A stretch of 64,000 nt of DNA from Giardia intestinalis (lineage: Eukaryota). Positions 1-23,657 of the stretch are shown here, in pieces. The notes beneath the pieces were generated by a model. That model worked only from the letters and a program-made list of their open reading frames with translations. It did no database searches and had not been told where the DNA came from. The position numbers and the translations under genes were made by a program. The stretch lies in NCBI GenBank assembly GCA_000002435.2, contig CM018792.1. One strand, written 5' to 3'. Position 1 is the stretch's first letter; every line of letters begins with the position of its first letter.

Positions 1-167
1 GGATCAAAGATACGGTGATAACTACTTGTGAAAAACCCGTCTTTGTCCACAACGAGACTAGTCTCCATGCTTTTGTTTGTATCAATTTACTTTAGAATAA
101 GCACAATCCTGGATTCCACATAAATGTAGATACTAGCTCTTGGCCCCTGGCACCCAGCGTGGCGAGG

Positions 168-1853: not shown

Positions 1854-1891
1854 TTTTCTTTTGTGTTGTCAAAAGAATTCACTTATAAAGC

Positions 1892-2710: not shown

Positions 2711-2759
2711 GCCACTTTATTAATCTCTCAATAATTTAACTTCAATTTTTGAAAGGCAA

Positions 2760-3125
2760 ATGACAAACGACATTATTGCGGTCCAGAAGCGCTTTGAGGG
2801 TCTTCAGCACCAGTACTTGAAGCTTCAGCAAAGCAAGAGCAAGCTTGTTGATTTGCTCCACGAGAACGAACTGGTGCTGGAGGACATGAAGACCCTGAAG
2901 CCTGAGTGCAGCGTCTACCAGACTGTAGGGCCCACACTTCTTCCGCGTTCACATGACGAAGTAAGGAGCGCGTTGACAGAGAAAGTAGGCTTCATAAGGA
3001 AGCAATTGGAAGTAGCTAACAAGCAGCTCCAGGACCTTGAGGGTCAACTGCGTGAAATCAACAAGGAGCGCATGCAGATAGCCCGGAATCGCGGGGCTGT
3101 GAAGGGCGCTTCTGCCGGCATGTAA
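2760..3125 (+). CDS. Prefoldin beta-type subunit (KE2/PFD6-like)
   Basis: 121-aa ORF with coiled coil, central beta-hairpin segment (CSVYQTVGPTLLPRSHDEV) and second coiled coil, the canonical prefoldin-beta layout. ATG confirmed at 2760. Confidence 0.5.
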   Translation: MTNDIIAVQKRFEGLQHQYLKLQQSKSKLVDLLHENELVLEDMKTLKPECSVYQTVGPTLLPRSHDEVRSALTEKVGFIRKQLEVANKQLQDLEGQLREINKERMQIARNRGAVKGASAGM

Positions 3126-3172
3126 ACCGCAGTCATCTCTTTGGCTCCTTTTCTTAAAACTTCCTCTGCAAA

Positions 3173-9152: not shown

Positions 9153-9379
9153 TTTTTGAAATTGACTTTATTGGACTCGTTAGTCATGGCCAACAGCGTA
9201 TGATTCGAAGCCCTTATCAACCGTACTGGGCACCCTCGGGAAGCTCGAGTTTAGCTCTTAAGGCTGCCTTTATGACCCAGTAACTATCAACGTAGGCTAT
9301 AATACCTTTCCTCTGCACCTGTAACTGCCTCTTCCTGGACTATAGTAGTGTGACTACTAGCTCAGGATATCGGACAAGC

Positions 9380-12250
9380 TAGAAGGCTCTCCCAATAAGG
9401 ACGAAAAGAGCGGTGGTAGAAATATTACTTTGACACTTTCTGCAAAGACAAACCATACTTGTGTCACAGCTCTCATAAGAGCTGCAAATAGGGGAGAGTG
9501 GAAGCAGCAAGACTCCCGGCCCCCCTCCACGAAGGAGGCCAGGAGCCAGGGAGGGCTGACGCCGGAAGACAGCGGAGGCGCTTTGCATCAGCATCGCCAG
9601 GCCAACTGGGCTCTGTCAGCAGCACCAGGAACGGAGCGCCACAGGGCCATGGTAAGGGCACGGGGTCGCGAGCATGGGAGAAGCACTCTGCCCAGCGCCT
9701 GCTTGCTTGGTAGGACCGGGCGCCAGAGGGGCATGTTGCCATCGGGGTATCTCTGCCACTAATGCGCAGCGCATTGGAACACGTGCCTGGGGCCGCATCC
9801 CCTCGGCTGGACAGACAGCAGCTAGACTCGACGTGCAGATGGAAGCCGTGATAGCGGACGCCGTCTCCCGGAGCAGCGCCCCCGCACAGGGCCGGCTATG
9901 CCGCGCCAGCTCGCTCGACAAGGAGCACGGGGGTCCTTGCGACGCCCTCCACCCTTTGCTGTGTTACAGGTACCCATGGCCACGAGCAGCACAGGGGACA
10001 GCGGCGTATGTGGGCAGGGTAGCGTATTCATGGAAGGGGCAGCTGCCCCACCGACGACCACTCCCGCCCTGTGCTTGCCACAATGGGAGGGCACGTGCGC
10101 CCGTAGACCGGCAGATGCCGTGCTGGTCCTCTCGAGCAATATGCGCATCCCTGCGTGACGTCCAGCGTGGACCAGATACCACGACCTGGGCCATCGCTAC
10201 TGGCAAGGCAAGTGCTGGTTGCAGCAGGGACGCCCGCCGCCCTCCAAGATAGACCAGCGACCTGCGCACCAGCTGCTATGGGCCTAACCTGCCGGGAACC
10301 TGGATCACAGCGCACTTGTCAAGGCCGCACACTCATTTGCATACTCGCCGCTAGCGTTGGACAACTGCGAGGTGTCCGTCTCCGGCCGCGCTCGCCTTAG
10401 TGTTTGGTCCATGGTGATACGCCTCAGCCGAGGAGGCTATCCGTACGCGGCAGTTCCCGGAGAGAAGGCAGGGGTGGCCGGCGGGCCTGGGAGATAGGAT
10501 TAGCACTAGCGAGTCCAGCCATCGGCCCGGGTTGCACAAAGGACGCCTGTAGTGCCTCCCCGGCTTCTGAGCATGGAAGGGCTGTGGGGTCTGCAGATGA
10601 GACGGACGCTGCCTTTTGATTTTATGTGTTTGTAGCAGCATAGTATTTATCGGGGTCTGCTCTGTCTGAAACCGAGAACATTCGCTTTCTTTCCTTATAC
10701 AGGCTGGGATCGATTGTAGAGGTGTGCTGTGCAAACCGGTGGCGGTCAGCGTATCTACTATCCAAACAGATACTGCCTGCGTCCTCCTGTGGCAGACCAC
10801 CACCAGGACCCAATCTACACAGCTGCTCTGGCATCTGTCGGACAATCATCACCTCCAGCCGAAGGATTGCTGTACGTCACATATCTTGAGTCGTCCATCG
10901 ACCAGGTGGTGCCATAAGCTCTTGTCCCCTACGTGTCCACCCGATGCTTACTCTGAGCGCCGCCAGTTGCACTCACGTCTGCACTACTCATCTGGATGCC
11001 CCCACTCTTCAAGAGCACATGCCCGCAACCGATGCTCCGTATTACGAGAGGAGCCAGCCGGATCACTGCGCCGTGCATAGCTCTCATAGGCGTGTTGCTA
11101 TGCGCGTCCCAGCCGTTCCACCCGTAAGCTGTCACGCGTTCACATGTGCGCCAGTGCCACCGAGCTTTCGTGGTCTCGAGGGGCCCCTGATGCATGGAGC
11201 GCTTGCGCAAAGTCCTTCCACCACTGACCCAAGCCTACCCCTCGCAAGATCCTTAGCGGAGTTGCATCCGAGATGTGTGCCTGCGTTGCTGTCCAGGTGC
11301 ATGTGCCGGCCCTGGTGCTTCCCACAAGCTTGCGAGCATCGAGCTGGCCTCTACCGAACCGTATCAGAAGTCAACACCAGGATGTAGTCCCCTCGGTTGG
11401 GCTCTGCAGGCTTCCAGAGCTACGCATCAAAAGGCCGTTCTTCTTTGCGTCGTGTAACGTAGGAAAATGCATCGAGCTACTACGCCCTCTCTGTGTGGCG
11501 TGGTTTACAACGGGGGACGAGATCCCTGTGCTCATGTCTATCTGCCCAGGACCAGCCGCAGCCCGGGTTGAGGATGACAAGCGAGCATCACCTGGCTCCT
11601 TGTCAGCAGGTGGGAGATCCAGCCACCCTAGTGCCCACAGCAAAGGGTGCCGATCACTGGCAGAAGGACAAGACACCCAGGCCCCGTTCCTTCCACTGAT
11701 GGTATCTAATAAGAGACTCCTTTGTCGCCTGCACCAACAACCTCAGGCACTGTGGGTCAGAGCGCCTCCATAGTGGACAGCGGTAGCACTATGATGATCT
11801 GGGGTGATGGGAGGGCTGGCTGCCTTCTGAACCCCACCTGGCACCTTGTTATGCGATGGGGAACCTTAGTAGCATTTAGTACGCGAGATCAGAGCTATGC
11901 ACACACCAGGCGAGAGCGTCTCATGGGCTTGCCTCCGTTGGTCCACACTTCCACGGATCCGGTATCTCCTCCAAAAACTGCGAGGATCCGCTTTTGGGTG
12001 CTATCTGCCGGGTAGCCGGGCCAGTAGGTGTCGTCTGAGGGAGGACGCCACAGGGACAGAGAGAACACCGGCGCACAGGGGTTTGCAAGGGGTCGACCCG
12101 CGCAGGGAAGGCACAAGGCCCAGCTCTCCGAGGATGTAGAGACACCGGAAGAGGGGCTAGCTAGAGGCTGCAGGCACGCGGGTGGTCCCGTGCCTATTCA
12201 TGGACTTTCTGTTTCCCTGCGTGGTGGGCTGAGTATCACAGGCTACACGT
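9380..12250. other. GC-rich (roughly 60-65% GC by eye), stop-codon-poor, apparently non-coding block; all six frames are tiled by short overlapping ORFs and no frame carries a long conserved-looking protein
   Basis: Composition shifts abruptly after the 9153-9380 spacer. The ORF track shows dozens of 60-190-aa overlapping ORFs on both strands, typical of high-GC non-coding or degenerate sequence. It sits directly 3' of the large VSP gene. Confidence 0.5.
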
Positions 12251-12259
12251 AGTGGATGC

Positions 12260-12266
12260 GTTTACT
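12260..12266 (-). promoter_or_regulatory. Giardia-type polyadenylation signal AGTAAAC 11-17 nt downstream of the VSP stop codon
   Basis: Reverse complement of gtttact at 12260-12266. The Giardia consensus is AGTRAAY. The same signal lies in a conserved 3' flank after the second VSP. Confidence 0.55.
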
Positions 12267-12276
12267 ACCTAAGTAT

Positions 12277-14805
12277 CTATGCTTTTCCTCTACAGAGGAA
12301 CCACCAGCAGAGGAAGCCCACAAGACCCCCGACTACAACGATGACAGCCACAGAGATGCCCGCTATGGCGCCTGTGCTGAGGCCGCTCTTGTTGACGCTT
12401 CCGCCGGTACTGTCGCCATCTTTCATGAGATAGCAGAGGACGGAACCTTTATTGTTGGGCGGAGGGGCGCAGTTTAAGCAGTCCTTGACACCGGTAATAT
12501 CACCGTTGCTGTTTTCGCAAGATGTGCAGGCGCCTTCTAATGCGGTCTTGTAGTATCCTGTGGCACACGTCGTGCAGGTGTTTGCAGTATTGGCGGCTGA
12601 GCATGTCTTGCAAGTAGGATCGCACGAGGGACAGGTTCCAGCACCGTCCGGACCAAGACTATTGGTGCATGTCTGGCATTTTCCTTTGTTATCAGTTAGT
12701 GCACATACCTGCTTGCCAGGCTGTCTCGTTGTTTCATAGCACCCGCCCTCCTGGATGAAGTATCCGGCGGCGCAGACCGTGCAAGCACCGTTAGCGGCAG
12801 TGGTGCAGAACCGAGTCCTGGCCGCATTGCTTGTGCAGACGCCATTGAGCGGCACGTTGCTCCCCTTGCACTTCGAGCAGTACTTGGTACCTCCAATTGT
12901 TAGGCCGCACGTCTCGCACTCCGGGCCCTCCACGCATTGCTCCACGCACTGGCCGCCCTCATTAAGCTTGGTCTCGTCGGCGTACCTCAGCATCTTCCCG
13001 GCGGGGCAGGCCGTGCACTTGGAAGCGCCGGCCCCGCTGCACTCCGCACAGGAGGGGTCGCAGGGCGCGCACGTTTGCCCGGATAGATACGTTCCGGCCG
13101 GACAAGACCCCAAGCAAGCGTTCTTCTCTGGAGTGAGGAAGTAGTTACTTTGGCACTTTGTGCACTTCTGCTTGTCCTCCGAGCACACCTCGCAGTTGGG
13201 GAGATTGCAGCCAGCAGGCGCGACCTCGTCGCACGTGTTCCGGCCCTCGTTCTTCTGGGTCCCGTCGGGGCACTCGGCGTAGCAGCCGCCCTTGTAGAGG
13301 TAGTGCGCGTTCGTACAGGCCGTGCACGTCCCTGCCTTATCGTTTGTACCGACCGTGCACATGCCCGCGTCCGTCTTCGCCTTGCACTCCCCATTCACCG
13401 GGACCTTGTCCCCTGTGCACTTGGAGCAGAAGGTCTGGCCCCCGATTTCCACGTTGCAGCTGTCGGCGGCGCAGTTTGTCGCGCCGGGGTTTGCGGCGGC
13501 GCACGGCGTTGGGCCAGCAGGCGCGACCTCGTCGCACGTGTTCCGGCCCTCGTTCTTCTGGGTCCCGTCGGGGCACTCGGCGTAGCAGCCGCCCTTGTAG
13601 AGGTAGTGCGCGTTCGTACAGGCCGTGCACGTCCCTGCCTTATCGTTTGTACCGACCGTGCACATGCCCGCGTCCGTCTTCGCCTTGCACTCCCCATTCA
13701 CCGGGACCTTGTCCCCTGTGCACTTGGAGCAGAAGGTCTGGCCCCCGATTTCCACGTTGCAGCTGTCGGCGGCGCAGTTTGTCGCGCCGGGGTTTGCGGC
13801 GGCGCACGGCGTTGGGCCAGCAGGCGCGACCTCGTCGCACGTGTTCCGGCCCTCGTTCTTCTGGGTCCCGTCGGGGCACTCGGCGTAGCAGCCGCCCTTG
13901 TAGAGGTAGTGCGCGTTCGTACAGGCCGTGCACGTCCCTGCCTTATCGTTTGTACCGACCGTGCACATGCCCGCGTCCGTCTTCGCCTTGCACTCCCCAT
14001 TCACCGGGACCTTGTCCCCTGTGCACTTGGAGCAGAAGGTCTGGCCCCCGATTTCCACGTTGCAGCTGTCGGCGGCGCAGTTTGTCGCGCCGGGGTTTGC
14101 GGCGGCGCACGGCGTTGGGCCAGCAGGCGCGACCTCGTCGCACGTGTTCCGGCCCTCGTTCTTCTGGGTCCCGTCGGGGCACTCGGCGTAGCAGCCGCCC
14201 TTGTAGAGGTAGTGCGCGTTCGTACAGGCCGTGCACGTCCCTGCCTTATCGTTTGTACCGACCGTGCACATGCCCGCGTCCGTCTTCGCCTTGCACTCCC
14301 CATTCACCGGGACCTTGTCCCCTGTGCACTTGGAGCAGAAGGTCTGGCCCCCGATTTCCACGTTGCAGCTGTCGGCGGCGCAGTTTGTCGCGCCGGGGTT
14401 TGCGGCGGCGCACGGCGTTGGGCCAGCAGGCGCGACCTCGTCGCACGTGTTCCGGCCCTCGTTCTTCTGGGTCCCGTCGGGGCACTCGGCGTAGCAGCCG
14501 CCCTTGTAGAGGTAGTGCGCGTTCGTACAGGCCGTGCACGTCCCTGCCTTATCGTTTGTACCGACCGTGCACATGCCCGCGTCCGTCTTCGCCTTGCACT
14601 CCCCATTCACCGGGACCTTGTCCCCTGTGCACTTGGAGCAGAAGGTCTGGCCCCCGATTTCCACGTTGCAGCTGTCGGCGGCGCAGTTTGTCGCGCCGGG
14701 GTTTGCGGCGGCGCACGGCGTTGGGTTTGTCTTTGCTTTACTTGCTGTTTGCGACGCCAAGGCCATTTGCAGGGCCAAGCTTACAAAAATAAGCTTATCG
14801 AACAT
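12277..14805 (-). CDS. Variant-specific surface protein (VSP) containing five identical 101-aa tandem repeats
   Basis: 842-aa ORF with ATG at 14803-14805. Signal peptide MFDKLIFVSLALQMALA, many CXXC motifs, GGCY motifs (YKGGCYAECP), a C-terminal TM ([26 protein letters not shown]) and the invariant CRGKA tail, followed by a TAG stop. Confidence 0.92.
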   Translation of the reverse strand: MFDKLIFVSLALQMALASQTASKAKTNPTPCAAANPGATNCAADSCNVEIGGQTFCSKCTGDKVPVNGECKAKTDAGMCTVGTNDKAGTCTACTNAHYLYKGGCYAECPDGTQKNEGRNTCDEVAPAGPTPCAAANPGATNCAADSCNVEIGGQTFCSKCTGDKVPVNGECKAKTDAGMCTVGTNDKAGTCTACTNAHYLYKGGCYAECPDGTQKNEGRNTCDEVAPAGPTPCAAANPGATNCAADSCNVEIGGQTFCSKCTGDKVPVNGECKAKTDAGMCTVGTNDKAGTCTACTNAHYLYKGGCYAECPDGTQKNEGRNTCDEVAPAGPTPCAAANPGATNCAADSCNVEIGGQTFCSKCTGDKVPVNGECKAKTDAGMCTVGTNDKAGTCTACTNAHYLYKGGCYAECPDGTQKNEGRNTCDEVAPAGPTPCAAANPGATNCAADSCNVEIGGQTFCSKCTGDKVPVNGECKAKTDAGMCTVGTNDKAGTCTACTNAHYLYKGGCYAECPDGTQKNEGRNTCDEVAPAGCNLPNCEVCSEDKQKCTKCQSNYFLTPEKNACLGSCPAGTYLSGQTCAPCDPSCAECSGAGASKCTACPAGKMLRYADETKLNEGGQCVEQCVEGPECETCGLTIGGTKYCSKCKGSNVPLNGVCTSNAARTRFCTTAANGACTVCAAGYFIQEGGCYETTRQPGKQVCALTDNKGKCQTCTNSLGPDGAGTCPSCDPTCKTCSAANTANTCTTCATGYYKTALEGACTSCENSNGDITGVKDCLNCAPPPNNKGSVLCYLMKDGDSTGGSVNKSGLSTGAIAGISVAVIVVVGGLVGFLCWWFLCRGKA
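13211..14725. repeat. Tandem array of five 303-bp repeats (each one 101-aa Cys-rich VSP unit), essentially 100% identical at nucleotide level
   Basis: Period of 303 bp is visible directly (for example gccagcaggcgcgacctcgtcgcacg recurs at 13211, 13514, 13817, 14120, 14423). Antisense and out-of-frame ORFs in the track are letter-for-letter identical across copies. Confidence 0.92.
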
Positions 14806-15399
14806 TGGGCCAGCGCTCGGGCAATAGCCATTTAGAAAGCAAGTTTCTTGAGAATTACGCCATGAAATGATGAAGATGGTATGATATTTGTTGTCGATAC
14901 CAGGAGTGTGGCTTTCATCGACAAAGGGTGCCTAGATCAGTGTTCAGGAGAATAATAGAATCACATGCTGTCATCTACAGTATTTGGTGCAGAGAGGAAA
15001 GTGGAGGAGCTCAGATGAGAGTAAGTATGCAGCTAGAGGTACGCTATTATCAGTGACTGTTTGTTATGAAAGGAATAAGCAGGCCACGGTGGAGGCCGCC
15101 GCCATGGGCCTGACGATCAGGAGCGACAACTGCAAGTCCACCATGGCGGGCGAGGAGGTGACCTTTCTCAACCACCCGGCGTCCCCCACTCCAGCAAGCC
15201 TTGCCCCAAAGGCCATCGCAGGTGCTGAGACTGCCCCCATAACCATCCACCAGAAGCTCATCCTGATGTCACTCTGTGTGGTCCCGATGGTGAACCACGC
15301 CCCCCTGGTCGAGATAGCATCGGACAAGGCGGACTACGAGGAGCTCGACAGACATCGCACAAGGCTTCAGCACTAACCAGCAGAAGCTGCGATCGCCTG

Positions 15400-16330
15400 G
15401 TCGACTTCCTGGCGTACCCGAAGGAGAAGGGCGGCCCGGGCCTGCTCATGCCGGGGCTCTACCACGACGAGCTGCGGAGGGCATGGGCCTCCCTGGACGT
15501 CAACAAGGGGACCAGAGACCCGGTGGAGCTGCCGGTGGACGGCCAGGCACTGCAGGGGAAGGGGACCTACTTCAACCGCCTCCTCACGCGCACACACCAG
15601 CTTCCGGACAGAGCGGCGGCGTACTGTCTGCAGATGTGCGGCGTGCTGACCGAGGAGGAAAGGGCCCTGAAGCAGAGAGATGGCTCGATCATGGCGCAGA
15701 CAAGAGGCACCTGCCCGGGCTGCCACACGGCAGACCCTCGACCGCGACATGAACTGCCCGAAAGCGGCGTGGACCAGGACCACGAGGCACGACATGATCG
15801 TCACGTGCCTGTACCTCCGCGTCTCGGGGAAGTTCAACGCAGACCTGGAGGTCAAGACCCACAGCCACCTCAGCGACCAGAACCAGAAGCCCGACATCTG
15901 GCTCGTCGACAAGTGCAAGGCGATAGATGTGGGCGTCATCCAGCCCCGCCAGATGGATGCCTACTACAACGAGAAGGTCAAGAAGTACAGGGACGAGACA
16001 GACGGATCCCTCCACCCCAGTCCAAGAGGCGCCTCGAGGAGCTCCACGTGGACGTCGAGAAGCTCTCCGTCCGGGCTGCCTTCGCCATCGCCCACATGGC
16101 TGCAGAGGCGAACGAGCACCTGACGAAGCTGATCAGACGGGCCGGGCCGAAAGCCTGGTCACCCAGAGCGACCGTCTCCTGTCATCCTACTTCTGACAAC
16201 CGAATGAGTCCATCCCCGGGACCCGACGACAACGATCGAGAAGGGGCCCAAGACTGGACACGCAGTCGAGTGGAATCCCAACCAGGAGAGAACGCCCCGT
16301 TAGCTGCTGCTGATCTGTATGGACAGTATT
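15400..16330 (+). mobile_element. Frameshifted remnant of the C-terminal CCHC / REL-endonuclease domain of a site-specific non-LTR retrotransposon (GilM/GilT/GilD-like), 5'-truncated
   Basis: Three overlapping + strand ORFs in different frames (15448-16332, 15483-15752, 15680-16123) together read like one interrupted coding region. Frame 2 carries KPDIWLVDKCKAIDVGVI (15887-15943), matching the (K/R)PD-x11-15-(V/I)D(V/I) motif of REL endonucleases in R2/NeSL/CRE/Gil elements. A Cys/His cluster (CPGC ... CPKAAWTRTTRHDMIVTC) lies just upstream. Surrounding sequence is GC-rich with no intact ORF. Confidence 0.4.
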
Positions 16331-17374
16331 GAGAATGACAACAAAGACCTGAGCTTCACTCACCGTGAAGGGAGAACAAGAAGAGGCACCCTAGTAGACC
16401 AGCGAGCCTGCAGGACGGCTTGGTCTCTGAAAGAACCGATGTGCACACCTAGACCGAGCACACACCCGCAGAACAGCCGAGGAACGCAGTTAGCTCCTCC
16501 CTTCCACTACTGTGGTCATTATCATATTCCATAGCCAACCCTCGTCTCCGGACATCGCCAAAAATTGAGCGGGAATTTACTCGCGAGATTTGCGGACAGC
16601 GCCCGCAGGCGAGGGCCCCAGCAGCACACCACTCAGTCAGGGGACACGACACGATCGTCGGTGCCTTTGTCTCAGGAGTGCAACGAAGGCTGGAGATCAG
16701 ACACATCCACCTTAGCAAACAGAGCGGGGATCACCCACCGCCCCAATGGCCCACCGGACCAGGGACACATACAACACCGCCCCCCGGTCCCACCAGCCTC
16801 ACCGCCCCACCAACCCCGCCTCACCCACTAGCTGGCCCACTGAGACCTGCGTGACCGCGACTGTGGGAGCGCTGACCCAGAACCACAGCCGGACGGACAC
16901 CGAGGGCCCAGCCAGTGGAGCCAGAGAGATGGCGAGAGAAGATCTGCTTACTCACAGGGGAAGCAGCGACCGAGAACAAATAACGATGCTCCTTATAGCG
17001 AGCCAGAGACCTAATAGCTGCTGTCGTCGAGACAAATGAAAGCATTGTTAAAAAGATAGTAACAACCCATATCTACCATCCACCATGAAGAAAGACCATG
17101 AAGCGAGGCACTACTCACAGACTACATGTGCTGGTGAGTAAGCTGACTCCTAGACTGAACGACGCGCACGCACAGTCTGAGCACACGCCCACAGAGCGAC
17201 CGAAGAAGGCACCAGAGTCTGGATGTATCACTGAAAAGGACTCTCTCGTTATGCTATCCATGACCAACAGTCGTCTCCGGACTGACCAGGAAGGAGCGGG
17301 TCCACCCGCACGATCTCTGGACCACGCTCAGATAGCCCCAGCAGCATAGTACAATAAGCAATATACGGTGACGC

Positions 17375-17381
17375 GTTTACT
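17375..17381 (-). promoter_or_regulatory. Polyadenylation signal AGTAAAC 9 nt downstream of the mini-VSP stop, within a 3' flank conserved with the large VSP (gcgtttactacctaagt)
   Basis: Direct comparison of 12255-12280 with 17370-17392. Confidence 0.55.
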
Positions 17382-17389
17382 ACCTAAGT

Positions 17390-17896
17390 CTACGCCTTTC
17401 CACGGCAGAGGAACCACCAGCAAAGGAATCCGACAAGACCACCTACAACAACAATCACAGCCACAGCAATCCCCGCGATGGCGCCGGTGGAGAGCTCGCT
17501 CTTGTTGACGCTAGAAGACACGCACTCGCTACCATTACTTGGAACAAATCCGTCGTTACACTCTGTGCACGTACCGTCGGGACATGACTTGCAGTTAGGG
17601 AGATTGCAATCAGGGGTGGGGACTCCGTCGCACGTGTTAGTCTCAGGATTTGGGGTTCCCTGAGGGCACGCGGCGTAGCATCCTCCGCTGTAGAGGTAGT
17701 GCCCCTCCCCACACAACTGGCACGCCCCGTTGATCGGGACGTTGTTTGGCTCGCATTTTGTGCAAACCTCTGTAGGAGAACCATTCATATTGACATCTAG
17801 ACAGTTATCTCCAGATGCACAATTTTGAGAGTTGGTGCACGATTTTGGATCGGCAAGCGCCAAGTAAGCGAATGCTAAACCTACCAAGTACAACAT
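17390..17896 (-). CDS. Mini variant-specific surface protein (about 168 aa from the first ATG) equal to roughly a single Cys-rich unit plus TM-CRGKA tail
   Basis: The track ORF starts at a GTG (17915-17917). The first ATG is at 17894-17896, giving signal peptide [19 protein letters not shown] motifs (CTKC, CQLC, CKSC, CTEC), GGCY ([10 protein letters not shown]) and a C-terminal region [38 protein letters not shown] nearly identical to the neighbouring VSP. TAG stop, then AGTAAAC at 17375-17381 (minus). Confidence 0.8.
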
Positions 17897-18308
17897 TGCC
17901 CGTCGAATCACGCTCACACTAAGGGGCGATCAGATAGTAGTGGAAGCCGCCTCCACCGGGCCGCACGCATCCTTCAGCGTATCGCTGTGAGCACGCCGCA
18001 GTGTAGAACAAGAAGGCACTGGTGCTTTTCTGCGGTACCCAAGGACTGACAGCTGACTGGTGCCCTACTCAAGAGCATCCTATCGAGGCCATCTGTTGCA
18101 GGCGGGCGTGGCTTGTGTACCGTTAAAGCCGCCATAAAGCCGCACCTCACAGATTTCAGAAAGTATGCCTCACACTCCCTGTCTTCTGTGGTGTAGATGC
18201 CATTGGTATTTTCACACACTCCTCCCACGCGGCCACCGGCGCACAGGTTTTTACGTCAAAGCGAGTAAAGGATTTGTTTCCAAGGCAAGAGTAATTCAAT
18301 TAGTTCCC

Positions 18309-21300
18309 CTAATTATCAAGGATTTTCCTGCAGCTAGCACAATCTGAGCGTAAGACGGAGTCTAGCTTTCTCATACGTGCAATCAAGTCTCCAGCTAAGT
18401 GCTTTCCAACAGTGCCACATTTTGCAATTGCTTTAGAATTATGCACCTTTGCTCGTAGGTTCATCTGTTCTGCGTGCTTATAGGTGCGACGAACCTCTGC
18501 CTCTTCCCTAAGTTTGGAAGAATAAGCACTCACCTCCTTAGCTAGCGCAATTTTATGCTGAGCACAATGCTCTTTTGCAGCTGAAGTATCCTTCTCCAAA
18601 ATGGTTCTGCGTAATTGTGTTTGAATGGCAAGTTCTTCCGCCTCTGTGAACTGGGTATGAAGACGCCCGAATTGGTTGTTGGACGACGAACAGTGATCTG
18701 TGCATGCAAGATTGTCGTCTTCGGTATCAGAAAAACTATAGTCGTTGCGAAGTTCAGTAAGTCGGTCTTCTTCCAGGCTAAAACGCTCCACCTCTCTGTT
18801 CAACGCTGTCAATTCCTTCAAAGTTCCTCCTAGAACCACTGAAGAATTGCTCGACGTAGACTCAATATCACGATGTACAGACGATGCAGTAGATTTTCTA
18901 GAGGATCTATGGTCATTGTATCCACCTTTCACCGTATGCTGAGCCACAAATCGGTGCAGCTCCATAGGAAGCATGATCTTGTTTCTGTAATAATCCTGCA
19001 GACGTAGCCTATCATGGACAGGCATAGGAATAGGTTGCTTGGTTGTTAAATCCTTCAACTCATTGAGCAAAAGTGTTGCTTTCTGGATGTTTTCCGCGGG
19101 ACGCGGATCAATGAGCGTAGCTTCCCGGATCCCAGCAACAACTATTCTGTTGGTCCGCGTGTTCATAGTCTGTCCAAGCTCCCTAGAGGCTTTGTAAAAG
19201 GCCTCTATTAAGCGGGTCTCGTTAGAGGCTGGATTTGCTCCTGTCTTTGCATAGGCATCCAAAGCATCCAAGGAGTATGTTTTCGAGTCTATATCTGTAC
19301 GCACATCTATTGGATGTATGTTAGACTTGAGGACAAGCGGTAATACACCAGCCCGCTGCCCCTCTCGAACAATTTCTACGGTATTATAGGAAAACCTGGG
19401 CTTAGTCTTAATTTGCGCTGGCTGAAGGTATGTCATGCTGGAGTCGGTGTTTCTGGGCGTTAATTTGCGTGGAGTTGGGGGTAGGGCAGACGTCGACAGA
19501 GTGTGGGCAGGCTGCCTGCAGAAACTTCCCAGTTGTAGGACGCTAAGTGGCTTTTTGGGGGGCTCCACGATGGACTTAATCATCTGTACAGCGTACTTTT
19601 CACGAAAAGCGTTTCGAACCGGAGCATCTACATAATCTTGTAGCTTTACCAGTGCATGCACGTTTCTAATTATATTTAATTGCTTTCTGACAAGATGGCC
19701 ACGCATAACTCGTTGAATCGATAGTGTAGCCAGTGTCATGATTACAGAATTGGGTGTCAATATAATTCCGGGGCTGCCAAGGAAGGTTCTACACATAGAA
19801 GATAGAGATACTGTACTATAGTTGTATCTGAATGGATCGCAGAACCATATCTCCAAAAGTGCGGCCTTAAATGCAAGGTCTGGTATGCTGCAACCAGGTC
19901 TATGTGTGACACAATATAATCCGCCAGTAACGTACTGAAAATCATCAAATAGAGTCGTAGAAAATAGCTCCTTAGATGGAAGCGAGAATACAAGGCCTTC
20001 TTTGATTATGCGAAGATTGCTGAGTATAGTCGCCTTCATGTTGTAGCGTATATATGGCGTTACATCTTCTAGCATTGCCTCATCATGCTCTTTATGCGGG
20101 AAGTAAGAGAGTCTGCTGTCACTACAGAAAGTGCGAAACGGATCACAGTCTAATATCATTTCAAACCGATTTTCAGTGTCGTCACCGTTAATCCCTACTG
20201 CGAGAGAGGAAATCGACCGCAAGCCGCAAATTATTTGTGCAGAAATCGATTGAGAGGCTTTCTTTGATTCTCCAGCTACCATAGGGAGGGCAAAGAAGTT
20301 GAAGTCCGATTGGTTATAAAGTTGCTCCCTGTCACCAGTTCCTTGCATACCTTGAACAACTCCTTTCTGACTATCCTGAGGAAAGGACCGTAGGTAGTGA
20401 CAATAAAGACTATTGGCAGAAAGGACAGAATTGATGTAACACCTACTCGAATAGACTTCAACGGCCCCCCACTGCTTTAAAAACGGATGGCCGAAAATGC
20501 GATTATAATTCAGGTTCTGCAGTACATTCATGTTTAATTGGGTTGATCGTCTTTCTAGCTTACTTTTTGGTCTGCGGTTGAGAGTCTCGAGGTCCTTCGT
20601 GAAGAGGTGTGAAGAGGCCGCGTCAAGCTGGTATTCAAAGCCTATAGCGGTAACGATATCAGAGCCGTAGTAACCTCTGAAGACCCAGTCAGTGCTAAGA
20701 GACCAGTCGCAGGCTTCAGCTAACGCCTTGGCACGCTTTTGCTTTTGAGCTGCTAGTTCTTCCTTACTATTTGTTTTCGGCCTGCTAGACGAATCACTAT
20801 AGTGTGAAGTGTCCAGTTGTTGGATGTGTTGCTTAAATTTTTCTGATAGAGGCGGTAAAAGAGTGATATAAGAATGTTCTCCCAAATAGGAAGTCACGTG
20901 AGGAAGCTTGCGTGTAGATTGCGGGTTCAATAAGCAGTTGTCAAATAGATGACCAGCGACTGTCTGGGAAATCAAAAAGAAACCATTTTTAACAATATCT
21001 ACAAAGACAGTTCGGGCCTTTAGCGTTACTAAAAGTCTCATCCTGGCCAAGATACGCCGGAAGTTCCGCTGAATGATCTGAGCCGCTCTTGATACTCGAA
21101 TAGCTAGGCGGATAATTGGATAGGAATGCATACAAAGTGGTGTGCCAGAGTACATACCCTGCTCTGAATCTACGCTTTTCGGTGGAATTGTGTGTTGAGG
21201 TAGGATAGATACTGAGTCACTTTGATACAGTGTAGTCTTTGAGACGGTAGTCTTGTCATCTGGCAAATAACAATCCGAGGACTTCCCGTAGTCAGAGTCC

Positions 21301-23657
21301 CTGGTATTCTGCAAATTAACTAGTGGCTCAGATAAGACAGAAGTATTAACGGTACTAGAAGAAGATCTAAGCCCGTCATCATGCTCGTTGAGTCGTGCTT
21401 TCCAATCGTCGACGGATGGAGCAGATGTAAATACCGATAAACGAGAGGTAGATCGGGGGATCACATTGGTTGACTGCCGTGGATTTAATGCAGCAATTAA
21501 GTTAGCACTAGCGTTGGCAAGAGCTGAGTCACGTCTAGATTGGTCTGTCAGCGTGTTCCTATGTTCAGGACTCACACTGTACTCTTCGACATGGTAGCCG
21601 AACAACTCTAGCGGCGTAAGTATCATGTTACTGCGCCACATTCTAAAGAGGGATTGAATACTGCAGGCGGCACTTGTCTGTACCAATGTGTGCTCTGTTA
21701 GCAGCAGTATGACTGATCGCTTTTCTTTCGCACGCTTTCTGTATGAAGGAATGCTGATACTGTTAGAGAAACAGCCTGCGGTGACAAGAGAAATCAACTC
21801 CTGGTAAAGGCTATGAGATAAGTGCTTTGTCGCTATTGTTTTCCCAACGGTAATAGACCTTTCAACATCACTGATCATGTCCTCTGGATAAAAGCTTGCA
21901 AAAGAGATGAGTTGAAATTCCGACAAGAGATATCTAAAGAGACTAGAGATACAATACAGGTTAAAGTCGAGTTGTAAGATGAATGGCATATCTGTGCCAT
22001 CGGCAGCATCCCAATGGGCTTTCTGGGTGCTCTCCGGGAGGCTGACCGACTCCAAGCTCCTCATAACACGCTGATAGAGGCTGTTGTGTAAATCCTTTGT
22101 CGCAAAGCTAGTTGCACGGGCCAAGGCCTTGCTGTGAAGAATGTCTTTTGGTGCTTCATATGGACTACTAGCAATGATTGAGTATGCAGCTGCAAATGTT
22201 TTAAAGTTACGTTTCTTGATGCACATATCAAAGACTTCTCCAGCTCTCATGGAAGTCGAAGGCACTGCCTTGAGAAGCTGATAATCTGTAGGCGTAGCAG
22301 AAAATGCACCTGCCTTGTGATGAGTATAAAGAGAGAGCTCTTCTGGACGGGCGTCTGGGTAAGCAAAAATGCTTATTTGTAGTTCCGAAAGGATGATTTG
22401 AATAAGTTGCTCGAAAATGGCTATCAGATTAGAATATTTATCTCCTGCTCTTGCGACGTACAGTCGGAGACTCCTGAGTTCATCATTACGTCGAGACGCG
22501 TCACTTAATGAATGACATTGCGATTGCAGACTTGCCATTTGACGATAGGCGCGAGCAATCAGCGTAGCGGCACGCTCACGGTGAGATTCTTCCCTGTCCT
22601 TCTGCTCCATATTCCATCTGTCTGCCATGCATCTATACGTTCGTTGTATGGTTAGCGTAGCACGTTTGACAGCCAAAACACGCAACTTTATTTCCGATGA
22701 ATAGTGTGCATAGACCTTGAACATGCGATAAAAGGCCTGAATTGTTGTGGCTGCATGGGATCTGTGGCACATTATCGTCTTGCATCTGGCTCGTACAACA
22801 AACCCTTTACAGATGCGTTGCAGAGTCACAATCGGACACATACGTTGGTACACAGAAGCAATAGCTCGCAAGTCATCACGAAAGACCTCAACATTATAGG
22901 CATCAAATGCAAATGGGTCGACAAGGTCCTTGATAGGCTTTTCCGAATCATAGATGATCCCACAGTAACGGGCGTAGCAATCCTTTAGGTGCCCCAGAGA
23001 TGAAGCATCAAGAGATGACAGAGACGGACAAGATTCCATGTATTTGATGTTGAGAGAAAGCCCCTGCAATAAGCTATCGCTCAGATTTAGATACGAAATC
23101 CGCTCGGCGAGTGAAATCACGGAGCCATTTAGAAACTGGAGTGACGGGAGAAGATTTACGATGTAGTGACGAAAATGTGGGTTTTCAAGCGCTGGGTTGT
23201 TGGTGCATGTTAAAATAACCAAGTTTGAAAGTGGGGAAAGGGCCTCAAATGCAGCTAGAGAAAGGTTGTTATGGTCCAGATGGAGGGAGCGTAGCTGTGA
23301 AGCAAGGCTCCAATAATGATAATTTCCCAGGTTGTCGAGTTTGTTGAACCGAAGGTCTAGCCGAAGGATTGATGGCGTTAAAGCAATTTTCCAGATGTCG
23401 TAGAGCTCGTTGTGCGGAAGATAGAGAAAGGCCAGTGAAGTGCAGTTGCCTACGTAGGTATGCGCGTGCTTAAGGCCCAAGGCTGTGAGATTGAGGGAGA
23501 CAATGCGGGATAGGTATGCTCTTCTGGTCTGAAGCTCTTGTTGCTCGAATGGTGTCAGCCTTCTAATGATTGCCAGCGCTGTTTCAGTAGAACAGCCTCC
23601 TGTAACATACAGTGACGAGTGTTGAATAAGATCTTGAAGAGTCACATCATCGCGCAT
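18309..23657 (-). CDS. Leucine-rich-repeat and IQ-motif protein (CEP97/LRRIQ-like), 1782 aa, with C-terminal coiled coil
   Basis: N-terminal LRRs (LNLTALGL.., LYLPHNEL.., LDLRFNKLDNL.., LHLDHNNLS..) with an LRR-cap-like segment, then at least six IQ motifs (IQAFYRMFKV, IQRTYRCMADRW, LIARAYRQMA, IQSLFRMWRS, IQRNFRRILARMR, IQRVMRGHLVRKQL). ATG confirmed at 23655-23657. Confidence 0.7.
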   Translation of the reverse strand: MRDDVTLQDLIQHSSLYVTGGCSTETALAIIRRLTPFEQQELQTRRAYLSRIVSLNLTALGLKHAHTYVGNCTSLAFLYLPHNELYDIWKIALTPSILRLDLRFNKLDNLGNYHYWSLASQLRSLHLDHNNLSLAAFEALSPLSNLVILTCTNNPALENPHFRHYIVNLLPSLQFLNGSVISLAERISYLNLSDSLLQGLSLNIKYMESCPSLSSLDASSLGHLKDCYARYCGIIYDSEKPIKDLVDPFAFDAYNVEVFRDDLRAIASVYQRMCPIVTLQRICKGFVVRARCKTIMCHRSHAATTIQAFYRMFKVYAHYSSEIKLRVLAVKRATLTIQRTYRCMADRWNMEQKDREESHRERAATLIARAYRQMASLQSQCHSLSDASRRNDELRSLRLYVARAGDKYSNLIAIFEQLIQIILSELQISIFAYPDARPEELSLYTHHKAGAFSATPTDYQLLKAVPSTSMRAGEVFDMCIKKRNFKTFAAAYSIIASSPYEAPKDILHSKALARATSFATKDLHNSLYQRVMRSLESVSLPESTQKAHWDAADGTDMPFILQLDFNLYCISSLFRYLLSEFQLISFASFYPEDMISDVERSITVGKTIATKHLSHSLYQELISLVTAGCFSNSISIPSYRKRAKEKRSVILLLTEHTLVQTSAACSIQSLFRMWRSNMILTPLELFGYHVEEYSVSPEHRNTLTDQSRRDSALANASANLIAALNPRQSTNVIPRSTSRLSVFTSAPSVDDWKARLNEHDDGLRSSSSTVNTSVLSEPLVNLQNTRDSDYGKSSDCYLPDDKTTVSKTTLYQSDSVSILPQHTIPPKSVDSEQGMYSGTPLCMHSYPIIRLAIRVSRAAQIIQRNFRRILARMRLLVTLKARTVFVDIVKNGFFLISQTVAGHLFDNCLLNPQSTRKLPHVTSYLGEHSYITLLPPLSEKFKQHIQQLDTSHYSDSSSRPKTNSKEELAAQKQKRAKALAEACDWSLSTDWVFRGYYGSDIVTAIGFEYQLDAASSHLFTKDLETLNRRPKSKLERRSTQLNMNVLQNLNYNRIFGHPFLKQWGAVEVYSSRCYINSVLSANSLYCHYLRSFPQDSQKGVVQGMQGTGDREQLYNQSDFNFFALPMVAGESKKASQSISAQIICGLRSISSLAVGINGDDTENRFEMILDCDPFRTFCSDSRLSYFPHKEHDEAMLEDVTPYIRYNMKATILSNLRIIKEGLVFSLPSKELFSTTLFDDFQYVTGGLYCVTHRPGCSIPDLAFKAALLEIWFCDPFRYNYSTVSLSSMCRTFLGSPGIILTPNSVIMTLATLSIQRVMRGHLVRKQLNIIRNVHALVKLQDYVDAPVRNAFREKYAVQMIKSIVEPPKKPLSVLQLGSFCRQPAHTLSTSALPPTPRKLTPRNTDSSMTYLQPAQIKTKPRFSYNTVEIVREGQRAGVLPLVLKSNIHPIDVRTDIDSKTYSLDALDAYAKTGANPASNETRLIEAFYKASRELGQTMNTRTNRIVVAGIREATLIDPRPAENIQKATLLLNELKDLTTKQPIPMPVHDRLRLQDYYRNKIMLPMELHRFVAQHTVKGGYNDHRSSRKSTASSVHRDIESTSSNSSVVLGGTLKELTALNREVERFSLEEDRLTELRNDYSFSDTEDDNLACTDHCSSSNNQFGRLHTQFTEAEELAIQTQLRRTILEKDTSAAKEHCAQHKIALAKEVSAYSSKLREEAEVRRTYKHAEQMNLRAKVHNSKAIAKCGTVGKHLAGDLIARMRKLDSVLRSDCASCRKILDN

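What the first reader, a model, noticed from the sequence alone, without database searches (positions are those of the whole stretch)
15400..16330. Dead non-LTR retrotransposon (REL-endonuclease/CCHC) fragment between the two VSP genes
Three frames must be combined to read a continuous protein-like sequence. It contains a Cys/His cluster and the REL-endonuclease signature KPDIWLVDKCKAIDVGVI (compare R2 RPDLVL...VVDVTV). The fragment is frameshifted and 5'-truncated, as expected for a GilD-like dead element or a decayed GilM/GilT copy. Its position between two VSP genes suggests retroelement debris provides recombination substrate or a boundary in VSP islands.
Basis: partly seen in the sequence, partly recalled or inferred. 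Interest (0 to 1): 0.6.

Follow-up and report, generated by a model that had tools for sequence, protein, structure and literature searches.

The report
Dead Giardia GilD retrotransposon remnant
This is a broken, 5'-truncated copy of the extinct GilD/Genie-2 family of Giardia jumping genes, lying between two surface-antigen (VSP) genes; it is real, but the family, its decay and its position next to VSP genes are already published, and this ORF is already annotated.

Summary
The window is Giardia lamblia WB: ORF 15448-16332 is 100% identical to XP_001709725.1, "Reverse transcriptase/endonuclease, putative". A translation stitched across frames hits only Giardia RT/endonuclease fragments (E down to 2e-192). 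A profile of diplomonad relatives hits solved R2 proteins over the CCHC and restriction-like endonuclease domain (E 7.7e-12).

The element is larger than reported. Copy A (15074-16632, + strand) starts between RT motifs 5 and 6. It runs through the thumb, CCHC, RHD, KPD...D and K..KY motifs to a stop at 16194, then a 436-bp 3'UTR. It is 94% identical to the majority of five other copies. It carries four net frameshifts and two 21-bp deletions, one flanked by GGGAC microhomology. It lacks about 1.5 kb of 5' sequence and the terminal hairpin with AGTAAA.

A second, older partial copy (B, 16633-17348) follows head-to-tail and abuts the 3' flank of the downstream VSP.

The fragment is only 26% identical to the intact 1050-1175-aa Giardia family, taken to be GilM/GilT. 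It therefore belongs to the dead family (GilD/Genie 2), not to a decayed GilM/T copy.

The 9.4-12.3 kb region is unrelated. No poly(A) tail and no clear target-site duplication were found.

Verdict: already known, low interest.

The parts
15074..16632 (+). Copy A: a 5'-truncated, frameshifted copy of the dead Giardia non-LTR family (GilD/Genie 2). It comprises a coding remnant and a 3'UTR and lacks the last ~29 nt of the canonical 3' end.
   Evidence: blastn gives 87-92% identity over ~1.5 kb to six other copies (L001-L005, L008). Identity to their majority consensus is 94%. The 5' breakpoint falls in an AATA microhomology.
15077..15352 (+). Frame-2 segment holding RT motifs 6-7 (AMGLTIRSDNCKS at 15101-15139, VTFLNHP at 15158-15178) and the start of the thumb (HQKLILMSLCVVPMVNHAPLVE at 15248-15313). 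A 21-bp in-frame deletion lies at 15235.
   Evidence: tblastn to P0020, P0006 and P0022, which carry RVT_1, begins at their residues 236, 209 and 154. The segment aligns to residues 616-700 of the intact P0183. The deletion is shown.
15353..15730 (+). Frame-1 segment: the linker between thumb and endonuclease, and the start of the CCHC motif. It is entered through two 2-bp deletions (15352, 15371) and left through a 2-bp deletion (15731).
15712..15757 (+). CCHC zinc-knuckle remnant (CPGCHTA / DRDMNC). It is split by the frameshift at 15731, and the conserved His is replaced by Arg.
   Evidence: C199, C202 and C214 are invariant and H210 is >=90% conserved in the diplomonad alignment A2. Both the window and P0001 have R at the His position.
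15782..15994 (+). Restriction-like endonuclease (PD-(D/E)XK) core in frame 2. It holds RHD (15782-15802), KPD...IDV (15887-15940) and K..KY (NEKVKKYRD, 15968-15994).
   Evidence: H225, D260, D271 and K287 are invariant in A2. These positions align to the R2 endonuclease domain in the profile search of solved structures. The motif definitions come from PMC4838377.
15994..15995 (+). Site of a window-specific 21-bp deletion (GGGACGCTCCCGATCATCTAT). It removes GTLPIIY, the beta-strand 4 region of the endonuclease, and is flanked by GGGAC microhomology.
   Evidence: Microhomology-mediated deletions are the published hallmark of GilD (PMC2861651).
16020..16196 (+). C-terminal tail of the ORF. It runs in frame 1 to 16140, has a 1-bp deletion at 16139, continues in frame 0 from 16143 to 16193, and stops at TGA 16194-16196. 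It is entered through a 1-bp deletion at 16018.
16197..16632 (+). 3'UTR of copy A. The last ~165 bp (16468-16632) are the stretch that other copies repeat in inverted orientation at their 5' end. The terminal hairpin with AGTAAA is missing here.
16633..17348 (+). Unit B: an older, more decayed partial copy lying head-to-tail after A. It starts inside the RHD-coding region (GHDTIVGAF, 16642-16668) and ends with the same GCCCCAGCAGCA motif as A.
   Evidence: A colinear local alignment joins 15781-16626 to 16638-17346 with score 208.5, against shuffles of 71 +/- 8. A sub-alignment scores 29 against 12.3 +/- 1.6. blastn finds 62% identity over 278 bp, E 1.5e-12. The same A-B arrangement occurs in L002 and L005.
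15448..16332 (+). The annotated 294-aa ORF, a frame-1 read-through. It is in the element's true frame only at 15448-15730 and 16020-16140.
   Evidence: It is 100% identical to P0012 = XP_001709725.1, 'Reverse transcriptase/endonuclease, putative [Giardia lamblia ATCC 50803]'.
12277..14805 (-). Upstream neighbour: an 842-aa VSP with a CRGKA tail. Its start codon faces the element's 5' end.
   Evidence: Pfam PF03302, E 3e-137. Five perfect 303-bp repeats.
17390..17917 (-). Downstream neighbour: a short VSP (175-aa ORF, first ATG at 17896) with a CRGKA tail. Its 3' end and poly(A) signal lie about 30-40 bp from the end of unit B.
   Evidence: Pfam PF03302, E 2.2e-19.
17353..17370 (+). Downstream copy of an 18-nt imperfect direct repeat (AATAAGCAATATACGGTG). 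The upstream copy, AATAAGCAGGCCACGGTG, is at 15074-15091. The pair may be a target-site or microhomology signature flanking A+B. Its status is unresolved.
   Evidence: family D5

Best explanation
The region holds non-functional debris of a Giardia non-LTR (LINE-like) retrotransposon. It belongs to the one family that survives only as dead copies, called GilD by Arkhipova & Morrison 2001 and Genie 2 by Burke et al. 2002.

How a live element would have worked (inferred). It would have encoded a single ORF with an RT, a thumb and linker, a CCHC knuckle and a PD-(D/E)XK restriction-like endonuclease. It would have copied itself by target-primed reverse transcription: the endonuclease nicks the target and the RT extends the nick on the element RNA from its 3'UTR.

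What is here (shown).
- Copy A (15074-16632) is the 3' half of such an element. It starts between RT motifs 5 and 6.
- It carries four net frameshifts and two 21-bp deletions.
- It carries a His-to-Arg change in the CCHC motif, has lost endonuclease strand beta-4, and has lost its terminal hairpin and poly(A) signal.
- An older partial copy, B (16633-17348), lies head-to-tail behind it.
- The pair is wedged between the 5' end of one VSP gene and the 3' end of another.
- The same A-B-VSP-tail module recurs in a paralogous locus.

Inferred.
- The element can no longer encode any activity.
- Its present distribution is largely due to segmental duplication and recombination together with VSP genes, rather than to fresh retrotransposition.
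For: Identity of the sequence.
- ORF 15448-16332 is identical to XP_001709725.1, 'Reverse transcriptase/endonuclease, putative', of G. lamblia ATCC 50803.
- The stitched translation hits 29 Giardia proteins (E 2e-192 to 2e-12). Three of them have RVT_1 immediately upstream of the aligned part.

Endonuclease class.
- Full HMMER search of 1.84 billion representatives finds only fragments of the same family, plus RT proteins named for Giardia, Spironucleus or Hexamita among the long hits whose clusters carry names.
- Profile A2 hits R2 proteins over CCHC and the restriction-like endonuclease at E 7.7e-12 to 2e-7. All five significant hits are R2 proteins.
- The C..C..H..C, RH, PD, D and K..KY columns are invariant or nearly so.

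Decay.
- The lesions relative to five other copies are listed.

Family assignment.
- Identity to the intact 1109-aa WB protein is 26%.
- The intact family has ORFs of 1050-1175 aa on contigs of about 5-6 kb. That is consistent with GilM at 5,474 bp (PMC7000408).
- Every relative at 60% identity or more is a fragment of 595 aa or less.
- Every other genomic copy aligned here is also broken by indels or split ORFs.
- The literature describes three families in WB, two telomeric and possibly active and one dead. GilD lies in gene-poor regions next to VSPs and is disrupted by microhomology-mediated deletions (PMC2861651; PMC3091692).
- RT remnants between VSP pairs are annotated in the WB reference (PMC7000408).

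Chromosomal setting.
- The window has no telomere repeats.
Against: - No tool here carries the names GilD or Genie 2. The family name is assigned by elimination and from the literature, not by alignment to the deposited consensus.
- Pfam finds nothing in the window fragments themselves. The RVT_1 part is missing and Pfam gave no hit on the endonuclease part either.
- The single sequence P0001 against PDB gives only E 0.8. Significance needs the profile.
- No poly(A) tail and no clean target-site duplication were found, so insertion by target-primed reverse transcription at this exact site is not demonstrated.
- The A|B junction differs from that of L002 by a ~30-nt replacement that I cannot explain.
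Confidence: 0.9

Rival explanations
1. A decayed copy of one of the telomeric, potentially active families (GilM or GilT) that landed at an internal site.
For: It has the same domain order and the same endonuclease motifs. It is homologous to the intact Giardia RT/endonuclease P0183 at E 2e-13.
Against: - Identity to P0183 is only 26% over 320 aa, and P0001 is 24% identical to P0089.
- The copy is 87-92% identical in DNA to six other degenerate copies of its own family.
- At that level of decay (94% to consensus), a GilM/T origin would leave far higher identity.
Confidence: 0.03
2. A domesticated or still functional host gene: the annotated 294-aa 'reverse transcriptase/endonuclease' ORF encodes a working protein.
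For: An uninterrupted 294-codon ORF exists (15448-16332) and is annotated in the reference genome.
Against: - The ORF follows the family's true frame for only about 135 of its 294 codons.
- All the endonuclease catalytic motifs (RHD, PD, D, K..KY) lie in another frame.
- The RT catalytic core is absent.
- Strand beta-4 and the CCHC His are lost.
- The ORF length is helped by the high GC content (~61%).
Confidence: 0.02
3. The remnant is dead as a transposon but has a secondary role in the locus. Two versions are possible.
- Its sequence serves as homology or a boundary for rearrangements that create, delete or duplicate VSP genes.
- Because copy A has lost its own poly(A) signal, its + strand transcription reads antisense into the downstream VSP and feeds RNAi-based VSP silencing.
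For: - The same A-B-VSP-tail module recurs in the paralogous locus L002, there as part of a 923-bp, 95%-identical inverted duplication.
- L006 has a remnant between two diverging VSPs.
- P15 has a single VSP at the syntenic site.
- Published associations exist between RT remnants, VSP pairs and synteny breaks.
- The element runs antisense to both VSPs, and copy A lacks AGTAAA.
Against: - The WB/P15 difference is explained just as well by recombination between the two VSPs themselves, with the element as a passenger.
- No expression or small-RNA data were available.
- The other copy whose flanks were fully seen away from VSPs, L003, shows the element is not tied to VSPs. L007 lies next to a different cysteine-rich gene.
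Confidence: 0.15

Closest known systems
GilD (Arkhipova & Morrison 2001), also called Genie 2 (Burke, Malik, Rich & Eickbush 2002): the dead non-LTR retrotransposon family of Giardia lamblia
   Same: - Found in Giardia WB.
- Exists only as degenerate copies with frameshifts and deletions, including a microhomology-flanked deletion.
- Lies in a gene-poor stretch next to VSP genes, at a non-telomeric site.
- Has a single ORF with RT followed by CCHC and a restriction-like endonuclease.
- Related copies carry an inverted repeat of the 3' end (about 165-195 bp). This matches my recollection of 'inverted repeats up to 172 bp' for Genie 2.
   Different: No difference of kind. This copy is 5'-truncated, so it lacks the 5' inverted repeat. 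It also lacks the terminal hairpin with AGTAAA. It is followed by a second, older partial copy.
GilM / GilT (Genie 1 / 1A): telomere-associated Giardia non-LTR elements
   Same: Same overall architecture (RT, thumb, CCHC, restriction-like endonuclease) and the same conserved motifs. They are the nearest intact relatives within Giardia.
   Different: - Only about 24-26% protein identity.
- Those elements have intact ORFs of 1050-1175 aa and sit in subtelomeric tandem arrays (PMC7000408, PMC10999387).
- This copy is internal and dead.
R2 and other site-specific non-LTR elements with a restriction-like endonuclease (R2, NeSL, CRE, R4 clades)
   Same: The order CCHC, RH, PD, D, K..KY is the same. 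The family profile matches solved R2 proteins over exactly this domain.
   Different: - A distant clade, whose relatives identified by name here are all diplomonad (Giardia, Spironucleus, Hexamita).
- The R2 RG.W motif is replaced by P-I/V-V-x-G-x-D-G-x-x-H in the diplomonad family.
- No N-terminal part of the protein is present in this copy.
- No rDNA target.

Membership tests
Non-LTR retrotransposon with restriction-like endonuclease (RLE/REL-endo class) | CCHC Cys/His motif between the RT/thumb and the endonuclease | tested here: met
   CPGCHTA...DRDMNC lies at 15712-15757. The Cys columns are invariant and the His column is >=90% conserved in A2. They align to the R2 CCHC. In this copy the His is mutated to Arg and the motif is split by a frameshift.
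Non-LTR retrotransposon with restriction-like endonuclease (RLE/REL-endo class) | PD-(D/E)XK-type motifs in order: RH (helix 1), PD (strand 2), D/E (strand 3), K..KY (helix 2), as defined for R2 in PMC4838377 | tested here: met
   RHD is at 15782-15802, KPD...IDV at 15887-15940 and EKVKKY at 15968-15994. H225, D260, D271 and K287 are invariant. The profile hits R2 endonuclease domains at E 7.7e-12.
Non-LTR retrotransposon with restriction-like endonuclease (RLE/REL-endo class) | RG.W motif after strand 4 | tested here: not met
   The diplomonad family has P-(I/V)-V-x-G-x-D-G-x-x-H instead. In the window copy this stretch (GTLPIIY) is deleted. The motif is conserved in R2 and is not a class-wide requirement.
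Non-LTR retrotransposon with restriction-like endonuclease (RLE/REL-endo class) | Reverse transcriptase domain (RVT_1) upstream in the same ORF | tested here: inconclusive
   The window copy keeps only RT motifs 6-7, and Pfam finds nothing. Sister copies aligned colinearly have PF00078 just upstream (P0006, P0020, P0022; ORFs in L004, L005 and L008).
Non-LTR retrotransposon with restriction-like endonuclease (RLE/REL-endo class) | [quoted passage not shown] | not tested
   No structure was predicted. The only evidence is the sequence-profile match to solved R2 chains.
GilD / Genie 2 (dead Giardia family) | All copies are degenerate, with frameshifts, substitutions and internal deletions, several microhomology-mediated | tested here: met
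   Window lesions: four net frameshifts and two 21-bp deletions, one flanked by GGGAC. No relative at 60% identity or more exceeds 595 aa. The other genomic copies aligned are also broken by indels or split ORFs.
GilD / Genie 2 (dead Giardia family) | Internal, gene-poor location next to VSP genes rather than at telomeres | tested here: met
   VSPs lie on both sides. There are no TAGGG repeats in the 64 kb. Housekeeping genes lie at 4908-9152 and 18309-23657. VSPs or VSP tails are near the copies in L002, L005, L006 and L008.
GilD / Genie 2 (dead Giardia family) | Inverted repeat of the 3' end at the 5' end of the element (recalled from Burke et al. 2002; paper not held) | tested here: not met
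   It is absent from the window copy, because the 5' ~1.5 kb is missing. It is present in sister copies L003 (about 195 bp), L005 (about 170 bp), L001 and L002.
GilD / Genie 2 (dead Giardia family) | Sequence identity to the deposited GilD/Genie 2 consensus | not testable with these tools
   Neither Repbase nor the GenBank consensus entries are available, and the PNAS paper is not held. The assignment rests on elimination against the intact family and on the literature.
GilM / GilT | High identity to the intact ~1100-aa ORF family, with a telomeric tandem array | tested here: not met
   26% identity to P0183. No telomere repeats. No array of full-length units.

The most novel reading that the evidence does not exclude
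The Gil remnant is not merely parked between two VSPs. It may be part of a mobile module (VSP head and promoter, copy A, copy B, VSP tail) that spreads or is lost by homologous recombination between VSP genes, so that it marks where VSP genes are born or fused.

The supporting observation is the syntenic locus in assemblage E isolate P15. It has one VSP whose tail matches the WB upstream VSP and whose head matches the WB downstream VSP. That is exactly the product expected from unequal crossing-over between the two same-strand WB VSPs, or the reverse event, with the retroelement in the lost or gained segment.

A bolder corollary concerns the recurrence of the element's 3' end about 30 bp from the conserved VSP poly(A) signal in both the window and L002, together with the 18-nt flanking repeat. 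These could reflect an original target preference of GilD for the conserved VSP 3' flank.
Probability: 0.3. Interest if true: 0.4.

Novelty: already known. Interest (0 to 1): 0.12.

Why it matters
As a finding it matters little. The family, its death by frameshifts and microhomology deletions, and its position beside VSP genes were published in 2001-2002. RT remnants between VSPs are annotated in the current WB reference.

Two points are of practical use.
- The annotated 294-aa 'reverse transcriptase/endonuclease' ORF is a frame artefact of a pseudogene and should not be treated as a protein.
- The locus is a clean example of a VSP island that differs between assemblages A and E by a recombination event spanning the remnant (two VSPs plus remnant in WB, one VSP in P15). 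It could be used to study how the VSP repertoire turns over.

Tried and rejected
- Pfam on the three frame fragments and on the stitched protein gave no hit. The RT core is missing and Pfam gave no hit on the endonuclease part.
- phmmer of the single sequence P0001 against PDB returned only R2, at E 0.8, which is not significant. The family profile was needed.
- The 2001 PNAS paper is not held, either by DOI or by PMC id.
- Exact-protein look-ups of the WB proteins P0012 and P0183 returned nothing. WB paralogues could therefore not be fetched, and isolate DH, P15 and metagenome contigs were used instead.
- The 9.15-12.3 kb region was searched with blastn (word 7) and relaxed tblastn, using both Gil families and both VSPs as queries. 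Nothing appeared beyond the VSP 3' flank. Part of it (11826-12260) is a repeated spacer downstream of a VSP.
- Poly(A) tail: none at 16632 or 17348.
- Target-site duplication: only the ambiguous 18-nt imperfect repeat, whose upstream copy overlaps element sequence.
- Inverted repeats within the window copy: only short ones of 14-18 nt, probably chance.
- Rfam: no hit in 64 kb. Telomere repeats: none.
- I considered that unit B might simply be an internal duplication of the 3'UTR. Its first ~90 nt align to the RHD-coding region of A, which favours a second truncated copy.
- No structure prediction was run. It was judged unnecessary.
Full report
**What the window is.** The region lies in a Giardia genome. 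Both neighbouring ORFs are variant-specific surface proteins with the CRGKA tail. They are 12277-14805(-), 842 aa, PF03302 E 3e-137, and 17390-17917(-), 175 aa, E 2.2e-19. ORF 15448-16332(+) is 100% identical over all 294 residues to XP_001709725.1, 'Reverse transcriptase/endonuclease, putative [Giardia lamblia ATCC 50803]' (P0012). The window is therefore isolate WB, and this exact ORF is already annotated as a retroelement remnant.

**Checking the observation.** I stitched a 372-aa translation across frames and searched 5.8 billion proteins.
- It gave 29 hits, all Giardia, with E from 2.4e-192 to 2.3e-12.
- Many are named reverse transcriptase/endonuclease. Three (P0006, P0020, P0022) carry Pfam RVT_1 just upstream of the aligned part.

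tblastn of those hits back onto the window confines the homology to 15077-16204 and fixes the frame path:
- frame 2: 15077-15352
- frame 1: 15353-15730
- frame 2: 15731-16019
- frame 1: 16020-16140
- frame 0: 16143-16193, then stop at 16194-16196

No other part of the 64 kb matches these proteins. Pfam finds nothing in the fragments themselves.

**Is it a restriction-like endonuclease element?**
- A full HMMER search of 1.84 billion representatives with the most intact relative (P0001, 367 aa, from a metagenome contig) found 103 proteins.
- These were fragments of the same family plus long proteins of 380-2036 aa. Eight of the ten long proteins examined contain RVT_1.
- The five of those ten whose clusters carry names are from Giardia, Spironucleus salmonicida or Hexamita inflata. 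All five are called reverse transcriptase or reverse transcriptase/endonuclease.
- In an alignment of eleven of these C-terminal regions (A2) the invariant or near-invariant columns are the RLE signature as defined for R2 in PMC4838377. They are C199, C202, H210 and C214 (CCHC), H225 (RH), D260 (PD), D271 (D) and K287 (K..KY).
- A profile of A2 searched against all solved structures returns five significant hits, all R2 retrotransposon proteins (9nl3, 9nl2, 9dou, 8gh6, 8ibw). E values run from 7.7e-12 to 2e-7, aligned over the CCHC and endonuclease domain.
- The single sequence alone gave only E 0.8.

**Which Giardia family?**
- A search with a long Giardia-type relative (P0078) recovers a second family with intact ORFs of 883-1175 aa, mostly 1050-1175 aa. 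Most sit on contigs of about 5-6 kb, and the family includes a WB protein of 1109 aa, P0183.
- This fits the published size of GilM, 5,474 bp (PMC7000408).
- The window's stitched protein is only 26% identical to P0183, aligning to its residues 616-900. P0001 is 24% identical to P0089.
- By contrast the window copy is 87-92% identical in DNA to six other copies from isolate DH and a metagenome (L001-L005, L008).
- Every other genomic copy aligned here is itself broken by indels or split ORFs.
- The literature available here states that WB has three retrotransposon families, two telomeric and possibly active and one dead (PMC3091692; PMC10999387).
- It also states that the dead one, GilD, lies in gene-poor regions next to VSPs and is disrupted by microhomology-mediated deletions (PMC2861651).

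By elimination and by these properties, the fragment is GilD (Genie 2 in the other nomenclature, from my own knowledge). It is not a decayed GilM/GilT copy. I could not align it to the deposited consensus, because neither the consensus nor the 2001 paper is available.

**Anatomy of copy A (15074-16632).** In a six-copy DNA alignment the window copy is 94% identical to the majority consensus of the five other copies. Its lesions are:
- a 21-bp in-frame deletion at 15235, shared with L005
- 2-bp deletions at 15352, 15371 and 15731
- a 21-bp deletion at 15994, flanked by GGGAC direct repeats, which removes GTLPIIY (the strand-4 region of the endonuclease)
- 1-bp deletions at 16018 and 16139

The CCHC histidine is Arg in both the window copy and P0001.

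The 5' boundary falls in a 4-nt AATA microhomology at 15074-15078, between RT motif 5 (YADD, present in P0006 and P0020) and motif 6 (AMGLTIRSDNCKS, 15101-15139).

Fuller copies extend about 1.4-1.55 kb further 5'. They begin with an inverted copy of the last ~165-195 bp of the 3'UTR:
- L003: 4543-4735 against 7480-7673, giving an element of about 3.1 kb
- L005: 4075-4246
- L002: 163-1083, which there also includes unit B and a VSP tail

The window copy lacks this 5' arm.

The canonical 3' end in L002, L003 and L007 is ...CACCACCGGAAGCAACCGGTGGGTGGAGTAAACG(A). That is a small hairpin followed by the Giardia AGTAAA poly(A) signal. The window copy stops about 29 nt short of it, at 16632. There is no poly(A) tail.

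**Unit B (16633-17348).**
- The sequence after 16632 is colinear with 15781-16626 of copy A. The local alignment scores 208.5 against 71 +/- 8 for shuffles.
- Its first ~90 nt match the RHD-coding stretch, with a score of 29 against 12.3 +/- 1.6.
- Its last ~270 nt match the 3'UTR at 62% identity, E 1.5e-12.
- It reads GHDTIVGAF at 16642-16668 and ends with the same GCCCCAGCAGCA motif as A.

I read it as an older, more decayed, more severely truncated copy lying head-to-tail behind A. The same A-B arrangement is present in L002 and, more weakly, in L005. The exact A|B junction differs from L002 by a ~30-nt replacement that I cannot explain.

**Junction with the VSP.**
- B ends about 30-40 bp from the poly(A) signal of the downstream VSP. 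The same juxtaposition is seen on both sides of L002.
- The ~30 nt beyond the VSP poly(A) signal are conserved among VSP genes, including the upstream VSP of the window.
- An 18-nt imperfect direct repeat brackets A+B: AATAAGCAGGCCACGGTG at 15074 and AATAAGCAATATACGGTG at 17353.
- Its upstream copy overlaps sequence homologous to other element copies. It may be a microhomology-assisted 5' junction plus a short target-site duplication, but this is unresolved.

**Context and comparison with another assemblage.**
- The window has no telomere repeats and no Rfam match.
- Its last 435 bp are 83% identical to the spacer downstream of another VSP tail in L008.
- In the assemblage E isolate P15, the interval between the orthologues of the 1414-aa and 1782-aa genes holds a single 546-aa VSP and no RT.
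- The 3' part of that VSP matches window 12251-13332, and its 5' end matches 17717-17917.
- Since the two WB VSPs are in the same orientation, one unequal crossover between them would produce exactly the P15 arrangement. The reverse event would produce the WB one.
- This agrees with published statements that VSPs and RT remnants cluster at synteny breaks (PMC3091692) and that RT remnants lie between VSP pairs (PMC7000408).

**Mechanism.**
- Inferred from the class: a live ancestor would have moved by target-primed reverse transcription, with RLE nicking and RT priming on the nick.
- Shown: this copy cannot do so. It lacks the RT catalytic core, and its endonuclease is split over two frames and has lost a strand.
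- Shown: its annotated ORF is a frame artefact.
- Inferred: its spread with VSP tails is largely by segmental duplication and recombination.

**Verdict.** The thing itself is a textbook dead GilD/Genie 2 remnant that is already annotated and published. Novelty: already known. Interest: low.

Noticed in passing
window 13210-14725: The 842-aa VSP contains 5.0 tandem copies of a 303-bp (101-aa) repeat at 100% identity. This implies very recent expansion or ongoing homogenisation.
   Followed up: partly
L011 15352-18925 vs window 9152-18309: The syntenic locus in assemblage E isolate P15 has one 546-aa VSP where WB has two same-strand VSPs plus the Gil remnant. The tail of the P15 VSP matches the WB upstream VSP (80%) and its head matches the WB downstream VSP. 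This is as expected from unequal recombination between the two. Polarity is unknown.
   Followed up: partly
window 9543-12260: A GC-rich (56-59%) 2.7-kb stretch with no long ORF and no similarity to VSPs or Gil elements. It is not conserved in P15. Its last 435 bp (11826-12260) are 83% identical to the spacer downstream of another VSP tail in DH contig L008 (10031-10464), so a VSP-tail-plus-spacer module is repeated in the genome.
   Followed up: partly
L003 4543-4735 and 7480-7673; L002 163-1083 and 3855-4773; L005 4075-4246: Fuller copies of the dead family carry terminal inverted repeats made of the last ~165-195 bp of the 3'UTR, which is unusual for a non-LTR element. In L002 the inverted duplication is 923 bp at 95% identity and also includes unit B and a VSP tail, giving converging VSP tails around the element.
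   Followed up: partly
L002 ~4030-4058, L003 7644-7673, L007 ~1180-1212: The canonical 3' terminus of the family is a small hairpin (CCACCGG-AAGCAA-CCGGTGG) followed by GGAGTAAACG, the Giardia poly(A) signal. No A-tail is present in the genomic copies.
   Followed up: no
window 16620-16665 vs L002 4020-4065: At the A|B junction, the window and L002 differ by a replacement of about 30 nt of unrelated sequence of nearly equal length. The window has extra 5' sequence of B and lacks the terminal hairpin of A. L002 has the reverse. The origin is unexplained.
   Followed up: partly
window 15074-15091 and 17353-17370: An 18-nt imperfect direct repeat (14 of 18 matches, with the four mismatches contiguous) brackets the A+B composite. 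The downstream copy lies in the conserved VSP 3' flank, and the upstream copy overlaps element-homologous sequence.
   Followed up: partly
L006 4695-9482: DH contig with a doubly truncated remnant of the same family, carrying an ~80-bp internal deletion, lying between two diverging VSPs that are inverted duplicates of each other. This is the '<- psiRT ->' arrangement reported for WB by Xu et al. 2020.
   Followed up: no
window 44369-47449: The second GC-rich patch of the window (58-59% GC at 44-46 kb) is the 5' part of a 1026-aa ORF that looks, by eye, like a kinesin (no domain search run); nothing unusual noted.
   Followed up: partly
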